The notes below the pieces were generated by a model. It made no database searches. It was not told the DNA's origin and saw nothing but the letters and a program-made list of their open reading frames with translations. A program made the translations under genes and the position numbers. From NCBI RefSeq assembly GCF_009914755.1, contig NC_060935.1: DNA of 64,000 bases; one strand, given 5' to 3'. This document shows, in pieces, positions 10,700 to 51,289 of the stretch (within the stretch, counting starts at the first letter, position 1; every line of letters starts with the position of its first letter). The DNA is from the human T2T-CHM13v2.0 reference genome, Homo sapiens.

Positions 10700-11055
10700 C
10701 ATGCTATAACTTTACCTGGGAACAGGGAGAGACTAGGAAAAATATGAACTAGTGCTGTATTTTTACTTCTTCCGTGGACCCACACACCTTCATCACTCTG
10801 CTTTCATGTACAAACACCTGCGACAATGATGTCACTTGGATTAGAGGAAAGGTTTCACTGAGATCTTCCTGTCTTGAGGCTTGTGGTGATGGGCTTGGGT
10901 TGGGACTCAGGCCAGCTGACCAGGGTTCACTGCTTAAGGCCCCAGAAAAACCCAGGGCCCGCTGCGTCTGATAAGCAACAGTGGTAGCTTCTGTGTCCAA
11001 AGGAGGTTATTTCAGAGTCTGGACTCTTGTCTCCACTCTAGCATTCTTTGTAGCC
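10700..11055 (-). other. RDX: Candidate distal non-coding terminal exon of a 3'-extended RDX isoform
   Basis: Minus-strand acceptor ctgccttttactctccag|G at 11056-11057 and variant signal AGTAAA at 10762-10767. Recollection that RDX isoforms extend to ~3 kb from the ZC3H12C end. 3' boundary uncertain. Confidence 0.4.
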
Positions 11056-19915: not shown

Positions 19916-21254
19916 TAACAGGAGGGAGAGGGAGCACGTGAGAGCCCAAGGGCAGAGGGGATGATAGAACAATCTGGCGCTGGAGACGGAGCTGATCTGA
20001 GCACTGTGGCAGCAACAGGGATGTTCACCAAATCTTCCCTTTGCTATCCTGCCTTTCCCATCCCCCTTGTAGCCAAGAGAACTCGCTATATGACTAGCTC
20101 TGACCATGAAATATTGGCAGAAGAGACAGGTGTCATTCCCAAGCCCAGGCGGTGAACAGCCCTGTGGGGTTCTCCAGCCTCTGTCTCCCTGACATGGTGC
20201 CTAAGAGGTCATATGTTCCTCCTGGTGTAGGGAAATCCAGGTCCCTGAGGGACTGTGCAGAACAAGATGCCCCCAAATGAACAGAGAGCAAGGCACGGGC
20301 CTCTAAGGTGTAAGCCTTGCAGGGTGGGTGGTAGAGCCTCACCTGCTCTGACTGATGGAAATCGGCAGAGGGAAGAAGGGAAACCCCTTCTGATGGGGGT
20401 GGGAGGCCTGAAGGAAGCCCTGGAGATGGGAAAGTCCTAGAGGGAACTGGCTGTACTGGAACAGCCACACTGTGCCAGGAAGTTGCAAAAACTTGTTGCA
20501 GGTGGGAGGCGGGGTGTGCAGCGGGCAGCCCACTCACAGAGGCTGGAGTGAAGGATGTGTGGTCAACAACACGGATGATCAGAGGAGAGACATTTTTAGG
20601 AATTCATTGCGTTTGTGGAGTAAAAGAAAGCAGACACGACACATAGAACCTGCTGAATGATGTCAATTATATAAAGTGCAAGCCAGATAAAACATATCTA
20701 CCTGTTAGAGTTTGAGACGGTGCTGACCTTGGAGGGGGGGCTAGGGCCTGAGAAAAGCACTAGGGATGTCTGCGGGGACACACTCTGCTCTGGCCTTCTC
20801 CTGAATCCACTGGCATTCATCACACGGTTCCCTAACCCGCAAATGTTTGTACTTTTACACTTCAATGACAAGTCATTAAAATCCACTAGCTCCATCATTA
20901 TTAAAAAGTCTTTATTTGTGCACAGTGCTGTACAAGGTTTTATCCAAGGAGAACTGAGCATGTCTCAAACTCTGTTTTAAAATAGCAATTTCAGGGCTGA
21001 TGTACAGCTGCTGTTGACTCATCTTGCTTTCTGCATAGAACAGAAATGAGGATAATCCATAATCATTTGTTTCTCCCCAAGGCCGTGGGCTAGAAGAGGA
21101 TATTGATTTGTAAGAATTACTCATGCTGACCGAGGACTGTTTGCCAGCCCCAGGTTAGCAAAGGAGGCCCAGCTGACTCAGACAGCCTTGAGAACATTGG
21201 GTTCTTCTGGAGTTTGAGGGAACAATAACAGAATGCCTTCTCTTAGCCAAGTGT

Positions 21255-21443
21255 TCCTTGGGTCTTCAGTGTGGTCTCCAGTCCAGCAGCCTCAGTTTCA
21301 CTTGGGAACTTGTCTGAAATGCAAATTCTTGGGCCCCACTGCTGACATGCTGAATCAGAAACTCTGGTAGCGGAGCCCAGCATGTGTGTTTTCACAACTC
21401 CTGCAGGCAGTTCTGCTGCACATTCGAGTGAGAACCACGGGCT
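21255..21443 (+). mobile_element. MER5A
   Basis: gtgtggtc..ccagcagc..cacttgggaacttgtctgaaatgcaaattcttgggcccc...gaatcagaaactctgg...tgagaaccac. Confidence 0.85.
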
Positions 21444-26295: not shown

Positions 26296-27397
26296 ATAAA
26301 TGCTTACATCAAGAAGATGGAAATATCTCAAATTAACAATCTAACATGATACCTACAGGAACTAGAAAAACAAGAACAAACTAACCCCCAAACTAGCAGG
26401 AGAAAAGAAATAACTAAAATCAGAGCAGAACTGACATTGAGGCCCAAAAATCCATACAAAAGATCAACAAAACCAAAAGTTGGTTATTTGAAAGAATAAA
26501 AATAATCAATAGACCACTACCTAGATTAATAGAAAAAAGAGATGTGATCCAAATAAGCACAATCAGAAATGAGAAAGGTGACATTACAACTGATCCCACA
26601 GAAATACAAAAGATCTTCAGAGACTATTATCAACACATCTGTGAGCACAAACTAGAAAATCAAGAGGAGATGGATAAATTCTTGGATGCACATAACCTCC
26701 CAAGATTGAATCAGGAAGAAATCGAAACTCTGAATAGAGCAGTATCAAGTTCCAAAATTGAATCAGTAATAAAAAACCCAGCAGCCAAGAAAAGCTCTAG
26801 ACCAGATGGATTCACAGCTGAATTCTACCAGATGTACAAAGAAAAGTCAATACCAATTCTACTGAAACTATACCCAAAAATTGAGGAAGAGGGAATCCCC
26901 CCTAACTCATTCTATGAAGCCAGCACAACCCTGATACGAACACCTGGCAAAGACACAACAAAAAAAGAAAACTACAGACTAATATCCCTGATGAACACAG
27001 ACACAATATCCAAAACAAAATATCAGCAAATCAAACCCAGTTAATTCACCATGATCAAGTCAGCTATATTACTGGGATGCAAGGCTGGTTTAAGACACAC
27101 AAATCAATAAATATGATTCACCAGATAAACAGAAATAAAAACAAAAATGATATGATTATCTTAACAGATGCAGAAAAATCTTTTGATAAAATCCAATATC
27201 CCTTCGGGATAAAAACCTTCAACAGAGTAGGCATTAAAGGAACATATCTCAAAATAATAAGAGCCATCTATAACAAACCCACACTGAACAGGCAAAAGCT
27301 GGAAGGATTCCCCTTACGAACAGGAACAAGACAAGGATGCCCACTCTTACCACACCTATTCAGCATAGTACTTGAAACCTTAGCAAGAGCAATCAGG

Positions 27398-27700
<303 letters not shown>

Positions 27701-31369: not shown

Positions 31370-31779
31370 AGGCTGATGTTAGAATATATTTATTGCTACA
31401 TTTATATACAATTATACAAACAGCCCAGACAGGAAAGAAATGTTGCATCGATTTCTGCAGATTCCACCAACATGTGCACAGAAATGGAGCTGTTCACCAC
31501 TGAGTTTGCTCTTGGATTGAAGCCAAATATAAGTCACATACATTTTTTGAAAAAGTGGGAAATTCTTGGAAATCCTGTCCATAGATTCTTCCTTACAAGC
31601 TAGTCATGCAGAAAAAAGTGGGTTCTCATAAGCTGATGCCTTCCAGCATGTTTGGGGGATAGAGTCCTGAAGATGGGGTGCAGTAGATGCTGGCTTGGGA
31701 CTGCAGGGTGCTGTGCGAAGTCCCAAGTCCTGGCCCATCTTGCTAAGGTCTGTCTTTAGGAAAGGCAATTGAGAGGGGT
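31370..31779 (-). other. RDX: Candidate proximal non-coding terminal exon of the 3'-extended RDX isoform
   Basis: Strong minus-strand acceptor ttgctattctctttctctccag (AG at 31781-31780) and AATAAA on the minus strand at 31389-31394. Confidence 0.6.
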
Positions 31780-32633
31780 CTGGAGAGAAAGAGAATAGCA
31801 AGAAAGGGAAATCCAACAGTAAACTGAGAAGAGGAGAGAACCATGAGCCAGGGCCCTGGGTAATGGAATACTGGTCCATCCAGTTCCAGCTGAGATTGCA
31901 GACTTTGGGGGATATACACATTCAGAACACCAGGTATGTCCTTATCCTAAAGCTTCCCATAAGTCAGTAGCCAGGGGCCTGCATGAAGACACAGAAAGTG
32001 AATAGGAAAGTCAGGCAAGAAAGAAGAAAACTCAACTTGAACACTCGTATTATCAACATTCAGTTGAAAAGGCATGACCCTGAATGTCTTTGCACATTTT
32101 GTAAGTTAACATTTAGTCATGGTTAGTTGATGGTTGAGTGATGAAGGGGAATGGAATGCCAGTGAGGAAATGTAATGATGTACAGATTGTATCAAAATAA
32201 AGGTGCGTCCACAAACTCTACACTCTGACCTCAGCCTGGTTAGAATTACTTTTGGCCTCAAAAGGAGTCTCACATATAGATTTTGCAATGTTCTGATCCA
32301 GAATTATGATGTGGATATAAGATGACGGTATAAACACTCTCTCTTTCATGTCACAGTCACATACACCTTAGTGACGTGAATCCCAAGAGAAATTGTTGAG
32401 CAGCCACAGGGCGTGTGTGCTTAGGGAATGAGTTCACCTTATTTACACCAGCTCCGTCTGACCCACCTCAGGCCCCTTCCCAACTCAGGAATCCAGGAGG
32501 GAGGACCTGCAGATTGGGTTTACTCTGGCCTCCTCAGCTAAAATCAGCTCAGAGCCTCAGAGAAAGGTCTGAAGGTTGAGAAAAAAGGCCCATGACTCTA
32601 AATACACCAGACTGTGCCAGGCTTTGGGGTTGA

Positions 32634-33012
<379 letters not shown>

Positions 33013-34233
33013 TGTGCATGGCTTTAGATGTCACGTTTAATTCCTTAATGTCACCATAATCCTACAGGCCCCTAGTCACGAGGAAGATAGGATGACAGTG
33101 CTGTGGAGAAGCCCTGGGGGCAGTGGGAGACGGACCAGAACATCACTCAAGAGTCCCTGTTCTTTCTCTTGGGTCAATAATTTTATAATCAACTATGGAG
33201 AGGCCCAGCAGTTCTTCCAAGGGTGCCAACTATGTGACACCTCAAGCTGGAGGATGTGGCAATCACCAACTCTGTGGATCCCTTCATAAATTCATGTCTA
33301 GATAATTCAAAATCTCTTTCTGTCATTTGATCTTGACTTTTCATGCAGAAACTTTCTTTTCCTACTTCTGACGACAATAGCTCAGAGTCAAACTCACTCA
33401 AAGGATTTGCTCTAAAAAGAACATTAACAGATGAAAATCAAGGAGGAAAAATCATAAAAGATCAGGTAGATTTTACTTTGGGGAGTTTTACGAGTTGACA
33501 AAATGGAAAGAGTTACATGAATGAATTTCTGCACTGGAAGAAATGGCTAAAGATAAATAGCTAAGAAGAGTATTGTTTGCGGCAATCTATGGCACATTAA
33601 GAATGTGCTTTAACCCAGGATTTTAGCTCAAATATCAGAAATAAGACCAGCTGGATTCTCAGCTAGACCCGTTTCAAAGAGAGTGAGAGCAAATGATGAT
33701 GGATGTGTCGTAGCATTTCAAGTGGACTTTGAAACAATGAAAGTGTTTTGGTAGTGTCATGAAATATCAGAGAGAATCTTGCACGACCTTAAACTCATTT
33801 CAGGGCAGGCCAAATTCAAGGCCAAAGAAGCAAATTGCTTCTAAAAGTTCCCCACCTTAAATGAACACATGTGACCATTTTTTTGTCACATAAATAAGTC
33901 TAAAACATAATATTTCTATAAAGAACATTGGTTCTACATCTTTAAATATTATCTCAAATATATTGACCTTTAGCTAGAAGGAGGTTTAGAGAACTTTGGG
34001 AGGCTTAATCAGCAAGTTGGGGGAACTCAAGATTTACAACATAAACAACATTGTTGTGGTTTTATTCACAAATGGGATGAGTCAAATAGTCTCTGCCAAA
34101 AAAAAAAAGAATTTAAAAACCTGTTATCATGGTAATCATATTGAAAAATGATTTTTAAATATTACCAAATTCAGGTCAGTACATAATACTATATTAACCT
34201 AGCTTATTAACCAATTCTTTAATTCTTCTGCTC

Positions 34234-34580
34234 CAGGAATCCCCAATCCCTGGGCCGAGGACCAGTACCGGCGTGTGGCCTGTTAGGAACTGGGTGGCAT
34301 AGCAAAAGCTGAGTGGTGAACAAGCATTATGGCCTGAGCGCCGCCTCTTGTCAGATCAGCAGCAGCATTAGATTCTCAAAGGAGCGAACCCTATTGTGAA
34401 TTGTGCATGCGAGGGTTCCACGTTGCACGCTCCTTTATGGGAATCTAATGCCTCATGATTTGAGGTGGAACAGTTTCACCCCAAAACCATCCCCTCCACC
34501 CGCCAACCCCACTCCCAGCCCATGGAAAATTTGTCTTCCATGAAACCAGTCCTTGGTGCAAAAAGGTTGGGGGCCACTGT
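34234..34580 (+). mobile_element. MER1B (hAT-Charlie)
   Basis: cagg..tccccaa..cctgggcc...ggcctgttaggaac...gcattagattctca...gaaaccagtccttggtgcaaaaaggttggggg. Confidence 0.88.
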
Positions 34581-34616
34581 TCTACTCAATGTGCATGTAC
34601 AAAACTTCATTTTTAA

Positions 34617-35054
<438 letters not shown>

Positions 35055-35424
35055 TAAAGTAGGAGGTCCAATCAGCTCACCAAGATTACAGGTAAAACAT
35101 CATTTTAATAAATTCTAGCTCACCTCAAAATTATTAAATTGGAGGATGATGTTCTTGATTGGCAAAGAGCCCAAGAGATGCAAACTATTGGGAAAGAACC
35201 TGGAAGGGATGGAATCAGAGGCTGTAAAGATAGAGGTTGCTCTTGGTCAGTTCCTTTGACTTGAAATCCACAGGTCCTGTGGATGAACAGGTTCAGATTT
35301 TATGAGGTCCCACCAGCATCCTGGCAGTGGAAGGTGTGGCAGGTCTAGTGGGCAGGTGAGCTGGCCCTGGCCACGGCTGCCAGTTGTACTTACCTAGTGA
35401 GGGAGGGAGCCTTCTTCCTAAGGG

Positions 35425-35491
35425 TTACATTTGCTTTATGCTGCTTTGGCAAGAGCGCATCTGGAACAATGCATACAGTTTGGGTCCCCAC
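35425..35491 (-). CDS. RDX: Alternative coding exon of radixin (exon 35394-35491) adding the C-terminal peptide WGPKLYALFQMRSCQSSIKQM*
   Basis: Acceptor tgtctcttttgaaag| at 35492-35493 and donor CTAG|gtaagt at 35393. Phase-2 exon G TGG GGA CCC ... ATG TAA. The peptide matches the recalled tail of the long (604-aa) radixin isoform (583+21). Confidence 0.85.
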
Positions 35492-35540
35492 CTTTCAAAA
35501 GAGACATTAAGAGATTAGAAAGCATTTAGCAAAAGAACAC
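35425..35540 (+). mobile_element. CR1/L3 LINE ORF2 fossil fragment
   Basis: The + frame reads LHLLYAALARAHLEQCIQFGSPPFKRDIKRLESI*, resembling the CR1 ORF2 motif LYSALVRPHLEYCVQFWSPxxKKDIxxLERVQ. Confidence 0.75.
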
Positions 35541-36726
35541 AGTAGGAAGCTGAATGGGCAGGCTGACTACTTGCTCAGCACATTGCAACATCAGGGCGCT
35601 CTTGTCAGCCTGGATTATGTAGGGCCTGTTATTGTCAAACTGTCTGCCTAATCTTTAACCTCTTTTTTTTTCCAGTCCACCTTTGAAACTCCACGATTAG
35701 AATGTGGAAATAAGAATAACTTTAAACCTTCCTTTTAAATAGATGCTAGACTTCAAATAGTGCAGCAACTCTACACAAGCTAACTAGTCTCTTTCAATAA
35801 TAAGACCTATTATTTAGAATAGTAGGTCTTGTCTTAAAGCCATAAAAATCAGAACTTCATGTCATTCAGTAATGTGTTCTACCAGATTTTATATTTTATG
35901 TGAAGTTCTCTTTTGATTAACCGAGGCATTGTTAAAGTTATTTTCAGGTAGCAACCAGACTAATGGATCCAAAATACTTTATAGTGCCTACTCTGAAATC
36001 AATAGTTGCTATGTTTTTGAATAAGCAAATTCTCAGTACCTGCCTACTAAAAGACTGGATAGGTTAAGACAAACAAACCATGAAAACTACCTCCTCTGCA
36101 GACACGTTGGCATTGCCGGAATTAAAGAGGTCAATTTCAGCCCTACTCTCTCTGGTCTGTCTTCCTCAGCTGACTCACCTGCCATTCTCCGATATATCCC
36201 TTAGAGATAAAACAAAGTCAGAATTAACTTGACAAAGAAACTGCTAAACTGGCCAAACGTATCCATGAGTCAGTTCCCTGACTGGGGAGAATACTGGTTA
36301 CAGTATTTTCTAACCTTGTGGGTAAAACAATTAGAAATGCAGTTACTAGCAATCTCTATCTTACGAATGAGTTATGAACCAAAAGGGCAGCTGTGGTGGG
36401 CTGTTTCCCATGGAAACCACGTCATGAAGAGTGATTTTGTTTCTAGGCAGTTTAACCCATAATGAAAAGCTGAGTCTTTGCAGTAAAATACAGTAGAAAC
36501 TCCAAATTTGTCAAAGATTGTAATAAAGGAACATAGAAACAATGACATTTATTAATGGTTTTATAATTCTTCTTTAATACTTGAGCTTGATGTTAACCTG
36601 GCCAGAAATAATTCGATGGTTCAATAGTACCTGAAATTTAAGAACATTTTAAAGGGAATTCTAACTATTTTCAAAGACTTTGAAGGTTAGTCTGGCTGGC
36701 ACTTTATTGTATGACATGCCATTTCA

Positions 36727-37095
<369 letters not shown>

Positions 37096-37320
37096 TTATG
37101 TAGATTTAGACTCATAAAGGAGCAGAGAGAGCAAAGGAAGAGAATTATTTTTCATGAAAATAATGAGAAAATTTAGGAGAGCATGAGAAAGGAGGATTTG
37201 GGAGTAAAGTTAATAGATGAAAGGCACAAGAGAGGGAATAGAACTGAAGGAGAAAACTGCATGTATGAGTTTCCCTAACAGGGAAAGAAAGGTGAAGAGA
37301 CGTCAGAAATTTCCAAGCTT

Positions 37321-43936: not shown

Positions 43937-44492
43937 AGATCTATTTTTATCTACAAAGCCATTCAAATAACCCACACAGAGCATCTGAAAAATGTTACTA
44001 ACGCTTTCTCTCTTCAAATTTCTAATAAATGACAAAGAATTGCACAAAGAATTGACTGGTACATTTCAATGAAATACTCATTCAGTTCTGAAAACGAATG
44101 TAGCGTTCTCCTCTGGCATTTATTCGGGAGGTTAACTCAAACTATAAGCCTGTCTCAAATGCTGCCTGATAACTTCATTTTTCAGCTCTCACAGTGGCCA
44201 CCCTCCTCGCTGGCTCTCTTCTACATGCTAAAACTCACCAAGAGCCTTCTTCCCTTTGATCCTCAACCTCGAATTTTCTCCAGACTGAGTTCAGTTCTTA
44301 TCACTGAAGACTTGCTCACTGAGTTCCTGAATTATTTTATTCAACACCTATTGGGTGGCTTAAAAAGCCTTCTATCCACATCCATCTTCACTTCTCCAAT
44401 TTCAACTTTCCTCTAGATTTTGAATATTTCTTGAGCACAGACTCTTCTTTGATTTCTAGGGCTTTAACAATCATTTATTAATTTAAAAAAAT

Positions 44493-44775
<283 letters not shown>

Positions 44776-44933
44776 GTAATACTTTTAAAAAATATAATGC
44801 GGAAGATGGCCGAATAGGAACAGCTCCGGTCTACAGCTCCCAGCGTGAGCGACGCAGAAGACGGGTGATTTCTGCATTTCCATCTGAGGTACCGGGTTCA
44901 TCTCACTAGGGAGTGCCAGAGAGTGGGCACAGG

Positions 44934-45242
44934 TCAGTGGATGCGCGCACCGTGCGCGAGCTGAAGCAGGGCGAGGCATTGCCTCACTTGGGAAGCCCAA
45001 GAGGTCAGGGAGTTCCCTTTCTGAGTCAAAGAAAGGGGTGACGGACGGCACCTGGAAAATCGGGTCACTCCCACCCGAATACTGCGCTTTTCCGACGGGC
45101 TTAAAAAACGGCGCACCACGAGATTATATCCGGCACCTGGCTCGGAGGGTCCTACGCCCACGGAGTCTCGCTGATTGCTAGCATAGCAGTCTGAGATCAA
45201 ACTGCAAGGCGGCAGCGAGGCTGGGGGAGGGGCGCCCGCCAT
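44934..45242 (-). CDS. L1 ORF0 (antisense-promoter ORF), open and extended to 102 aa
   Basis: MAGAPPPASLPPCSLISDCYASNQRDSVGVGPSEPG... with ATG at 45242-45240; the two donor-like sites CAG|GTGCC are retained. Confidence 0.75.
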   Translation of the reverse strand: MAGAPPPASLPPCSLISDCYASNQRDSVGVGPSEPGAGYNLVVRRFLSPSEKRSIRVGVTRFSRCRPSPLSLTQKGNSLTSWASQVRQCLALLQLAHGARIH

Positions 45243-45696
45243 TGCCCAGGCTTGATTAGGTAAACAAAGCAGCCGGGAAGCTCGAACTGGGTGGAGCCCA
45301 CCACAGCTCAAGGAGGACTGCCTGCCTCTGTAGGCAGCACCCTGGGGGCAGGGCACAGACAAACAAAAAGACAGCAGTAACCTCTGCAGACTTAAATGTC
45401 CCTGTCTGACAGCTTTGAAGAGAGCAGTGGTTCTCCCAGCACGCAGCTGGAGATCTGAGAACGGGCAGACTGCCTCCTCAAGTGGGTCCCTGACCCCTGA
45501 CCCCCGAGCAGCCTAACTGGGAGGCACCCCCCAGCAGGGGCACACTGACACCTCACATAGCAGGGTACTCCAACAGACCTGCAGCTGAGGGTCCTCTCTG
45601 TTAGAAGGAAAACTAACAAACAGAAAGGACATCCACACCAAAAACCCATCTGTACATCACCATCATCAAAGACCAAAAGTAGATAAAACCGCAAAG

Positions 45697-46714
45697 ATGG
45701 GGAAAAAACAGAACAGAAAAACTGGAAACTCTAAAAAGCAGAGTGCCTCTCCTCCTCCAAAGGAACGCAGTTCCTCACCAGCAACGGAACAAAGCTGGAT
45801 GGAGAATGACTTTGACGAGCTGAGAGAAGAAGGCTTCAGACGATCAAATTACTCTGAGCTACGGGAGGACATTCAAACCAAAGGCAAAGAAGTTGAAAAC
45901 TTTGAAAAAAATTTAGAAGAATGTATAACTAGAATAACCAATACAGAGAAGTGCTTAAAGGAGCTGATGGAGCTGAAAACCAAGGCTCGAGAACTACGTG
46001 AAGAATGCAGAAGCCTCAGGAGCCGATGCAATCAACTGGAAGAAAGGGTATCAGCCATGGAAGATGAAATGAATGAAATGAAGCGAGAAGGGAAGTTTAG
46101 AGAAAAAAAGAATAAAAAGAAATGAGCAAAGCCTCCAAGAAATATGGGACTATGTGAAAAGACCAAATCTACATCTGATTGGTGTACCTGAAAGTGATGG
46201 GGAGAATGGAACCAAGTTGGAAAACACTCTGCAGGATATTATCCAGGAGAACTTCCCCAATCTAGCAAGGCAGGCCAACATTCAGATTCAGGAAATACAG
46301 AGAACACCACAAAGATACTCCTCGAGAAGAGCAACTCCAAGACACATAATTGTCAGATTCACCAAAGCTGAAATGAAGGAAAAAATGTTAAGGGCAGCCA
46401 GAGAGAAAGGTCGGGTTACCCTCAAAGGGAAGCCCATCAGACTAACAGCGGATCTCTCGGCAGAAACCCTACAAGCCAGAAGAGAGTGGGGGCCAATATT
46501 CAACATTCTTAAAGAAAAGAATTTTCAACCCAGAATTTCATATCCAGCCAAATTAAGCTTCATAAGTGAAGGAGAAATAAAATACTTTACGGACAAGCAA
46601 ATGCTGAGAGATTTTGTCACCACCAGGCCTGCCTTACAAGAGCTCCTGAAGGAAGCACTAAACATGGAAAGGAACAACCAGTACCAGCCATTGCAAAATC
46701 ATGCCAAAATGTAA
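45697..46714 (+). pseudogene. L1 ORF1p, frameshifted
   Basis: MGKKQNRKTGNSK...; an extra A in the run at ~46103-46109 splits it into ORFs 45697-46125 and 46154-46714. Confidence 0.93.
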
Positions 46715-46779
46715 AGACCATCGAGACACTAGGAAGAAACTGCATCAACTAACGAGCAAAATAACCAGCTAACATCATA

Positions 46780-50602
<3,823 letters not shown>

Positions 50603-50891
50603 ACAATGAGATCACATGGACACAGGAAGGGGAATATCACACTCTGGGGACTGTTGTGGGGTGGGGGGAGGGGGCAGGGATAGCATCGGGAGATATACCT
50701 AATGCTAGATGACAAGTTAGTGGGTGCAGCGCACCAGCATGGCACATGTATACATATGTAACTAACCTGCACAATGTGCACTTGTACCCTAAAACTTAAA
50801 GTATAATAAAAAAAAAATGAAAAAAATAAAAAAAACATTTAGGAGACCTAACAAAAAAAAAAAAATATATATATATATATATAATGCTTTC

Positions 50892-51289
<398 letters not shown>

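What the first reader, a model, noticed from the sequence alone, without database searches (positions are those of the whole stretch)
35394..35540. Radixin alternative C-terminal exon appears exapted from an antisense CR1/L3 LINE fossil
Seen: the minus strand has a clean 98-nt exon (ttttgaaag|G...CTAG|gtaagt) encoding WGPKLYALFQMRSCQSSIKQM*. The same bases on the + strand translate to LLYAALARAHLEQCIQFGSPPFKRDIKRLESI, resembling the conserved CR1/L3 ORF2 motif. The acceptor lies within the repeat-like part. Known (recalled): a 604-aa radixin isoform carries this tail, by splicing out of the last codon/stop of the canonical ...EFEAM end, and ERM autoinhibition and F-actin binding depend on the extreme C-terminus. 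Inference: an ancient LINE fragment supplies a tail that could alter FERM/C-ERMAD closure, analogous to merlin isoform 2.
Basis: partly seen in the sequence, partly recalled or inferred. Interest (0 to 1): 0.8.

Follow-up and report, generated by a model that had tools for sequence, protein, structure and literature searches.

The report
Radixin tail exon from LINE fossil
A small alternative exon that adds 21 amino acids to the end of the cell-cortex protein radixin was built from the reverse strand of an ancient CR1-type jumping-gene fragment, and its protein sequence is almost unchanged in primates, rodents, rabbits, bats, deer and pangolin.

Summary
The minus strand carries a 98-nt exon (35491..35394) with an AG acceptor and a GTAAGT donor. 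It encodes WGPKLYALFQMRSCQSSIKQM-stop and is an annotated RDX exon.

The plus strand of the same bases is a real fossil of the conserved block just after the reverse-transcriptase domain of a CR1-type LINE ORF2:
- It shares 19/36 residues with a bird ORF2.
- 13 of 13 bird/turtle ORF2 proteins hit it.
- A bird/turtle HMM gives E 2e-10.
- A DNA profile of human copies chosen without reference to the window gives E 1e-8.

The detectable fossil (35432-35566) covers 60 of the 67 coding bases, the acceptor, the pyrimidine tract and candidate branch points. The stop codon and donor lie outside it. L3 versus another CR1-clade family was not resolved.

The canonical stop context (ATG TGA GAG) holds a GT donor whose phase fits.

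New here: all 14 tail-bearing protein clusters, from six boreoeutherian orders, keep a 21-residue tail that is 18-21/21 identical. This argues for constraint.

The isoform and the merlin analogy are already in print (PMC6515277). I did not find the LINE origin in print. What the tail does to the protein is untested.

The parts
35394..35491 (-). Alternative RDX exon of 98 nt. It is the penultimate exon, or the 5' part of a terminal exon.
   Evidence: Sequence; listed as an RDX exon in the hub's annotation table.
35425..35491 (-). Coding part. The first G completes the Met583 codon. Then come 21 codons (WGPKLYALFQMRSCQSSIKQM) and TAA at 35427-35425.
   Evidence: Translation; phase fits the canonical exon end; the same tail appears in 14 mammalian protein clusters.
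35492..35531 (-). 3' splice-site region: AG at 35493-35492, an interrupted pyrimidine tract, and candidate branch points (ctaat, ttaat). All of it is the antisense of the purine-rich LINE codons for FKRDIKRLES.
   Evidence: It lies inside the LINE block. Branch-point candidates were read by eye and not tested.
35388..35393 (-). 5' splice site GTAAGT of the 98-nt exon.
   Evidence: It lies outside the detectable LINE block.
35432..35566 (+). Fossil of the conserved block C-terminal to the RT domain of a CR1-type LINE ORF2, in sense on the + strand. It is the only detectable piece of the element.
   Evidence: tblastn 35434-35541; bird/turtle HMM 35434-35535, i-E 2e-10; profile of 14 human copies 35432-35566, E 3e-17 (copies partly chosen by likeness to the window); independent profile of 6 copies 35434-35529, E 9.7e-9.
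35086..35393 (-). Read-through extension of the exon to an alternative poly(A) site. ATTAAA lies at 35109-35104, 18 nt before the annotated end.
   Evidence: annotated exon 35086-35491.
31374..31978 (-). Alternative terminal 3'-UTR exon (AG acceptor; AATAAA 21 nt from its end).
   Evidence: annotation table.
20895..21441 (-). Alternative terminal 3'-UTR exon (AG acceptor; AATAAA 22 nt from its end).
   Evidence: annotation table.
10743..11055 (-). Most distal terminal exon and end of the gene (AG acceptor; no AATAAA or ATTAAA in its last 60 nt).
   Evidence: annotation table.

Best explanation
An ancient CR1-type LINE lies antisense to RDX, about 32 kb downstream of the canonical stop codon. 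One roughly 135-nt piece of it survives. This is the conserved ORF2 block after the reverse-transcriptase domain.

On the RDX strand, the purine-rich LINE codons (FKRDIKRLE) read as a pyrimidine tract with branch-point-like motifs. A CT on the LINE strand (35492-35493) reads as the acceptor AG. The most common state in other human copies is AT, so a single A-to-C change is the most likely origin of the AG (inferred).

A suboptimal GT donor straddles the last codon and stop of canonical radixin (AT|GTGAGA). It can splice to this acceptor. The splice keeps Met583 and adds 21 residues read from the LINE's reverse strand, then a TAA.

The exon then ends at its own poly(A) site, or it splices once more to one of three terminal UTR exons. 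The stop is 31 nt before that last junction, so the 50-55-nt rule predicts that these mRNAs escape nonsense-mediated decay (inferred).

The tail is kept at 21 residues and 18-21/21 identity across boreoeutherian mammals. The exon is therefore a constrained exaptation, not primate splicing noise.

Most likely role (inferred, about 40-50%): extending the C-terminus that normally sits in the FERM F3 pocket tunes autoinhibition and/or F-actin binding, while the splice also swaps the 3' UTR.
For: - Exon anatomy and reading frame.
- Annotated RDX exon: hub table.
- Donor at the canonical stop, with fitting phase.
- LINE homology: 19/36 identity to bird ORF2 P0055 residues 641-676; 13 of 13 bird/turtle ORF2 proteins hit; HMM i-E 2e-10; independent human-copy profile E 9.7e-9.
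- P0055 has endonuclease, then RT (382-572), then this block.
- A profile of the human copies finds 3264 proteins at E<=0.01. The best 120 are almost all bird and turtle RT-domain proteins.
- Degenerate copies of the block are dispersed in the same genome.
- Acceptor columns in 14 other copies: AT 5, AA 3, CA 2, and CT, GT, AC, CC once each.
- Terminal exons with poly(A) signals.
- Tail conservation: 14 of 14 clusters at E<=0.001 carry a 21-residue tail, 6 identical, 7 with one change and 1 with three.
- A review places the extreme C-terminus in an F3 pocket and lists the 21-residue extension (PMC6515277, passages).
Against: - No LINE sequence is detectable on either side of the 135-nt block, neither RT upstream nor the rest of ORF2 and the 3' UTR downstream. 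The element's extent and subfamily are therefore unknown.
- The stop codon and donor cannot be shown to be LINE-derived.
- Pfam has no model for the block.
- One other human copy (L007) also has CT at the acceptor columns, and three copies read PPF there. The AG may therefore have been present in a subfamily and not created in place.
- Most tail-bearing proteins are computed gene models, which may have been guided by the human protein.
- No nucleotide alignments were available, so coding constraint cannot be separated from constraint on the DNA or RNA.
- No afrotherian, xenarthran, marsupial or mouse/rat tail was seen. Clustering at 90% identity could hide them.
- I saw no junction reads and no peptide evidence. 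The donor's -1 T and the AAG acceptor look weak, which fits a minor isoform.
Confidence: 0.8

Rival explanations
1. The exon is LINE-derived and really spliced, but the 21-residue tail has no role in the protein. What is selected would be the RNA event, or an overlapping non-coding element. The RNA event replaces the canonical 3' UTR with one of four alternative ends.
For: - The splice removes the whole canonical 3' UTR and offers four alternative 3' ends.
- The splice signals look suboptimal.
- No protein-level evidence was seen.
- A review says the consequences of the extension are unknown (PMC6515277).
Against: - A UTR switch needs no open frame. Yet the length, the stop position and 18-21 of 21 residues are kept in 14 of 14 clusters from six orders.
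- Constraint on splicing enhancers alone would rarely hold all three codon positions. This is an inference; synonymous sites could not be examined.
Confidence: 0.3
2. The fossil comes from another CR1-clade LINE family, such as L2, and not from L3/CR1 proper.
For: - Only a 36-45-residue block is preserved.
- From recall, related clades share this block.
- No library of named repeat consensus sequences was available.
Against: - The best 120 of 3264 database matches to the human-copy profile are bird and turtle ORF2 proteins. From established knowledge, CR1 is the dominant LINE in those animals.
- Identity to bird ORF2 is 53% over 36 residues.
- The ranking may be biased by one heavily TE-annotated stork genome.
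Confidence: 0.2
3. The likeness to a LINE motif is chance, and the exon arose from unique intronic sequence.
For: The match is short (about 100-135 nt), and neither flank shows LINE sequence.
Against: - E 2e-10 for the protein HMM.
- E 9.7e-9 for the independent DNA profile, which was the sole hit in 64 kb.
- 13 of 13 ORF2 proteins hit the same place in the same frame.
Confidence: 0.02

Closest known systems
Merlin (NF2) isoform 2, which uses alternative exon 16
   Same: A member of the merlin-ERM family whose alternative 3' exon changes the extreme C-terminus that docks on the FERM domain. The comparison with radixin's 21-residue extension is made in PMC6515277 (passages).
   Different: Merlin's exon replaces the last residues with a shorter, more hydrophilic end. 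Radixin keeps the whole canonical end through Met583 and adds 21 residues. No transposon origin for the merlin exon is claimed there.
Exonization of L3-type LINE fragments, e.g. Plat_L3 in ZRANB2 (PMC3384923; listing and start of abstract only), and catalogues of TE exonization that include CR1 (PMC2879366; listing only)
   Same: An intronic or downstream ancient LINE fragment supplies splice signals and exon sequence to a host gene.
   Different: The RDX exon is a C-terminal coding exon reached from a donor that straddles the stop codon. Its protein sequence is nearly invariant across six mammalian orders. Most exonized TEs are described as lineage-restricted, low-inclusion cassette exons (recalled).
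Conserved alternative exon of PCBP2 derived from the LF-SINE, and persistently exonized MIR elements
   Same: An ancient retroposon fragment is frozen by selection as an alternatively spliced exon, and stays recognisable because it was exapted.
   Different: A different repeat class (SINE versus a LINE coding region read in antisense). The RDX case adds a protein tail and is not an internal cassette.

Membership tests
CR1-clade LINE (RepeatMasker L3/CR1) ORF2 fragment | Significant sequence homology to the ORF2 of full-length CR1-type elements | tested here: met
   13 of 13 bird/turtle ORF2 proteins hit 35434-35541; 19/36 identity; HMM i-E 2e-10. The reference P0055 has endonuclease and RT domains in LINE order.
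CR1-clade LINE (RepeatMasker L3/CR1) ORF2 fragment | Member of a dispersed, degenerate multi-copy family in the same genome | tested here: met
   10 other weak copies found with the window's own block. Many stop-ridden copies found with the bird protein. A profile of 6 copies chosen without the window hits the window at E 9.7e-9.
CR1-clade LINE (RepeatMasker L3/CR1) ORF2 fragment | Colinear LINE sequence in the flanks (RT upstream; rest of ORF2 and 3' UTR downstream) | tested here: not met
   The protein HMM spanning 160 residues upstream and 150 downstream, and the 1-kb DNA profile, match only 35432-35566. The flanks have either decayed beyond detection or are not LINE.
CR1-clade LINE (RepeatMasker L3/CR1) ORF2 fragment | Best match to an L3/CR1 consensus and not to L2 or another clade | not testable with these tools
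   No Dfam or Repbase library was held. There is only the indirect point that the top 120 database matches are bird and turtle proteins.
Exonized (exapted) transposable element | Splice site(s) and exon sequence lie within the TE | tested here: met
   The acceptor AG, the pyrimidine tract and 60 of 67 coding bases lie inside 35432-35566. The donor and stop lie outside the detectable block.
Exonized (exapted) transposable element | Exon is used in transcripts | not testable with these tools
   Only the RefSeq annotation in the hub's table and the isoform description in PMC6515277 were available. No reads could be examined.
Exonized (exapted) transposable element | Evolutionary constraint after exonization (exaptation, not noise) | tested here: inconclusive
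   The protein tails are 21 residues and 18-21/21 identical in 14 of 14 clusters. However, there are no nucleotide alignments, the models are largely computed, and no species outside Boreoeutheria was seen.
Merlin-isoform-2-like C-terminal switch of ERM autoinhibition | Alternative exon alters the residues that dock on the FERM domain and changes closure | not tested
   The canonical end is retained and extended, not replaced. The effect on closure is unknown. The full-length AlphaFold2 model was too poor to use.

The most novel reading that the evidence does not exclude
In or before the boreoeutherian ancestor, the reverse strand of a CR1-type LINE coding block was recruited as a protein-coding exon. 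It has been held under strong purifying selection since then. It would give radixin, alone among ezrin, radixin and moesin, a regulated 21-residue C-terminal extension that changes FERM/C-ERMAD closure or actin binding. Under this reading the stop-straddling donor is older still: bird and lizard radixin models also continue past EFEAM into a different 11-residue tail. A pre-existing amniote splicing switch would then have acquired a new, LINE-derived tail exon in mammals.
Probability: 0.4. Interest if true: 0.6.

Novelty: new member of a known kind. Interest (0 to 1): 0.4.

Why it matters
Radixin is the ERM protein of hair-cell stereocilia and a deafness gene (DFNB24). Clinical panels already number variants on the long transcript (NM_001260492; passages in PMC11363168, PMC7368073 and PMC9859074). 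From recall, that transcript encodes the tail. A review states that the consequence of the 21-residue extension is unknown (PMC6515277).

Two findings turn an overlooked database isoform into a testable regulatory variant of an ERM protein. The tail is deeply conserved, and its sequence is an accident of the antisense reading of a LINE motif.

For transposon biology it is one more example of a known process, the exonization and exaptation of ancient repeats. It is a clean one. Selection on the host exon probably explains why only this piece of the element is still recognisable.

Tried and rejected
- **Pfam.** A scan of the plus-strand ORF and of the tail found nothing at E<=10. Pfam also has no model covering the block in bird ORF2 proteins.
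- **DNA search of the own genome.** The 261-nt region found only itself. Old copies needed protein or profile searches.
- **Rfam.** No family reached gathering score in 34000-37000.
- **Flanking LINE sequence.** None was found with the protein HMM or the 1-kb DNA profile. The extra hits of that DNA profile (model positions about 600-990) fall mostly on stretches listed as masked repeats. The one alignment I read, at 36861-37103, looks Alu-like (name from recall). I take them to be repeats in the flanks of the sampled loci.
- **ESM Atlas.** The best named cluster scored 0.84 (PF09004 on 16% of members), below the level that counts, and Pfam did not confirm it.
- **AlphaFold2.** I folded a 604-residue deer radixin that carries the tail, using a 23-row, near-identical alignment. 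Mean pLDDT was 53.8 and pTM 0.23, and the tail was below 50. Nothing can be read from it.
- **Sauropsid tail in human.** A search for the sauropsid 11-residue tail between the canonical stop and the gene end matched at most 6/11 residues, which is chance level.
- **Literature on a transposon origin of the RDX tail.**
  - (radixin/isoform/exonization): 3 papers held all three terms. I opened two of them, and they mention radixin only in passing.
  - (RDX/exonization/CR1/transposable element): none of the 12 papers listed, of 33 found, holds RDX.
  - (radixin/exapted/exaptation/exonized/TE-derived): none of the 12 papers listed, of 916 found, holds radixin.
  - the peptide strings occur in no paper.
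  - Supplementary tables of exonization catalogues were not searched and may list the exon.
- **C-terminal tags.** A search for reports that C-terminal tags weaken ERM closure gave nothing usable.
- **Complex prediction.** I did not run it. The tail is shorter than the 30-residue minimum, and FERM/C-ERMAD binding is textbook.

Full report
**What is in the sequence**

On the minus strand, 35491..35394 is a 98-nt exon. It is preceded by ...tctaatctcttaatgtctcttttgaaAG and followed by GTAAGT. Read after its first base it gives WGPKLYALFQMRSCQSSIKQM, then TAA at 35427-35425. The hub's table lists 35394-35491 and a longer form, 35086-35491, as exons of non-selected RDX transcripts. The longer form ends 18 nt after an ATTAAA at 35109-35104.

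**How the exon joins radixin**

The canonical last coding exon lies outside the window. I found it in the window's own genome with Pfam ERM_C (locus L015, window-equivalent 67691-67852). Its end reads GAG TTT GAA GCA ATG TGA GAG. The G of the last codon and the T of the stop form a GT, giving the donor AT|GTGAGA.

Spliced to the G at 35491, the Met codon is restored and the frame runs into WGPK... I did not see transcript records. The link rests on three things:
- the fit of phase;
- 14 database proteins that read ...IDEFEAM followed by the tail;
- a review stating that radixin isoforms 2, 3 and 5 carry a 21-residue extension, isoform 5 being otherwise identical to the 583-residue form (PMC6515277, passages).

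**What lies downstream**

The exons 31374-31978 and 20895-21441 each start after an AG and end 21-22 nt after an AATAAA. The exon 10743-11055 starts after an AG and ends the gene. I read these as alternative terminal exons (inference).

The stop is 31 nt before the 98-nt exon's donor. By the 50-55-nt rule (established knowledge), such mRNAs would not be targets of nonsense-mediated decay. This is inferred and was not tested.

**The plus strand is a LINE fossil**

The plus strand has an open frame at 35422-35527, GLHLLYAALARAHLEQCIQFGSPPFKRDIKRLESI.

Copies elsewhere in the genome. Searching the own genome with this frame gave 10 other weak matches (E 0.017 to 7). All share the pattern LY.ALVRPHLE.CVQFW.P.FK.DI..LE, and several have stop codons.

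Relatives in the protein database. A profile of 7 of these rows (the window's own row plus 6 other copies, without internal stops) found 3264 proteins at E<=0.01 among 5349 candidates. The best 120 are almost all reverse-transcriptase-domain proteins of a stork, a crane, a godwit and two sea turtles. Many of them carry endonuclease plus RT domains. From established knowledge, CR1 is the dominant LINE of birds and turtles.

Direct tests against the window:
- 13 of 13 such proteins hit window 35434-35541 on the plus strand at 44-58% identity.
- P0055 residues 641-676 share 19 of 36 residues with the window. In P0055 the block sits after the endonuclease (239-401) and RT (382-572) domains.
- An HMM of 92 bird/turtle C-terminal regions, which contains no human sequence, hits only 35434-35535 at a meaningful level (29 bits, i-E 2e-10). 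The three other hits had i-E 0.98-5.6.

DNA-level tests:
- A profile of 14 other human copies gave 55.5 bits, E 3e-17, at 35432-35566. Those copies had been kept because they resembled the window (14 of 22 tried), so this score is inflated.
- I repeated the test with copies chosen by the bird protein alone. Six of the 30 loci covered the block. Their profile hit only 35434-35529 (28.2 bits, E 9.7e-9).

Chance is excluded.

**Extent and name of the fossil**

Nothing on either side of 35432-35566 matches the LINE, by protein or by DNA. The block covers:
- 60 of the 67 coding bases;
- the acceptor AG;
- the pyrimidine tract, which is the antisense of the purine-rich codons for FKRDIKRLE;
- about 75 nt of upstream intron.

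The stop codon lies 5 nt outside the block and the donor 39 nt outside it.

At the two acceptor columns, the 14 other copies read AT (5), AA (3), CA (2), and CT, GT, AC and CC once each. An A-to-C change, which turns His into Pro on the LINE strand, most likely created the AG. However, one copy shares CT and three copies read PPF there, so a subfamily state is possible.

I could not tell L3 from other CR1-clade families, because no named repeat library was available.

**Conservation, the main addition**

I first searched the protein database with the canonical last exon. Of the best 120 of 705 hits:
- 9 continue past EFEAM with the WGPKLY... tail;
- 13 unnamed or partial entries read the TGA as W and run into the 3' UTR, which I take to be gene-calling artefacts;
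- 5 have other continuations.

A second search scored only the last 40 residues of a deer protein that carries the tail. It found 14 clusters at E<=0.001 among 1102 candidates. All 14 have a 21-residue tail: 6 identical to human, 7 with one change and 1 with three changes.

The clusters come from pangolin, three deer entries, Old World primates, degu, lemming, vole, rabbit, horseshoe and leaf-nosed bats, Myotis, and one unnamed source. That is six orders, all boreoeutherian by my taxonomy knowledge.

At the neutral distances usually quoted for human versus rodent (about 0.5 substitutions per site, recalled), most of the 21 codons should differ. One differs in vole. This is an inference.

Caveats:
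- Most entries are computed models, possibly guided by the human protein.
- Clustering at 90% identity hides species.
- Nothing outside Boreoeutheria was seen.
- Without nucleotide alignments, coding constraint cannot be told apart from other constraint.

It is also plausible that selection on the exon and its upstream signals is why only this piece of the LINE is still recognisable (inference).

**Function**

My AlphaFold2 attempt on a 604-residue tail-bearing radixin was too poor to use (mean pLDDT 53.8).

I commit to this reading. The splice is a combined switch of the 3' UTR and the C-terminus. The tail most likely modulates closure or actin binding. I put about 40-50% on a protein-level role.

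**Novelty and score**

The exon, the isoform and the merlin analogy are known. Exonization of ancient LINEs is a known process (for example PMC3384923, abstract seen).

I did not find the LINE origin of this tail, or its deep conservation, in the papers searched. Supplementary catalogues were not searched.

It is a new, clean member of a known kind. Interest 0.4.

Noticed in passing
Proteins P0208 and P0210; human search in the window, L015 and L052: Bird radixin models (a cluster of 372 members) and an Anolis model also continue past EFEAM, but into a different 11-residue tail (LQKYDLLQPLG / LQNYDLLQPLG). The Met is retained, as expected if the same stop-straddling donor is used. That donor may therefore predate mammals, with lineage-specific tail exons. 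No human counterpart was found (at most 6/11 residues matched).
   Followed up: partly
window 35492-35493 (+ strand CT = acceptor AG): In 14 other human copies of the LINE block these two columns read AT in 5 and CT in only 1. A single A-to-C change (His to Pro on the LINE strand) probably made the acceptor. Copies L004 and L009 also read PPF here, so a subfamily state is possible.
   Followed up: partly
Proteins P0121-P0144: 13 of the best 120 database hits to the radixin C-terminus, mostly from unnamed sources, read the canonical TGA as W and translate on into the 3' UTR (WELLFCIYV... and similar). They look like gene-calling artefacts, not isoforms.
   Followed up: no
window 47780-48880 (+) and 27134-27400 (+): The bird ORF2 proteins also hit a long RT-coding stretch inside the large masked repeat 44466-51253 (E down to 1e-21). 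It is probably an L1 (name from recall). There is also a weak RT-like stretch at 27134-27400 (E about 0.003-0.1).
   Followed up: no
window 35422-35527 (+): The protein-atlas feature search put a chordate cluster first (score 0.84). 16% of its members carry Pfam PF09004 (ALKBH8_N). The score is below the level that counts, and bird ORF2 proteins do not match that Pfam family at E<=0.01.
   Followed up: yes
window 36077-36371: A RefSeq 'silencer' element lies about 500 nt from the LINE block, on the intron side of the tail exon. It was not examined.
   Followed up: no
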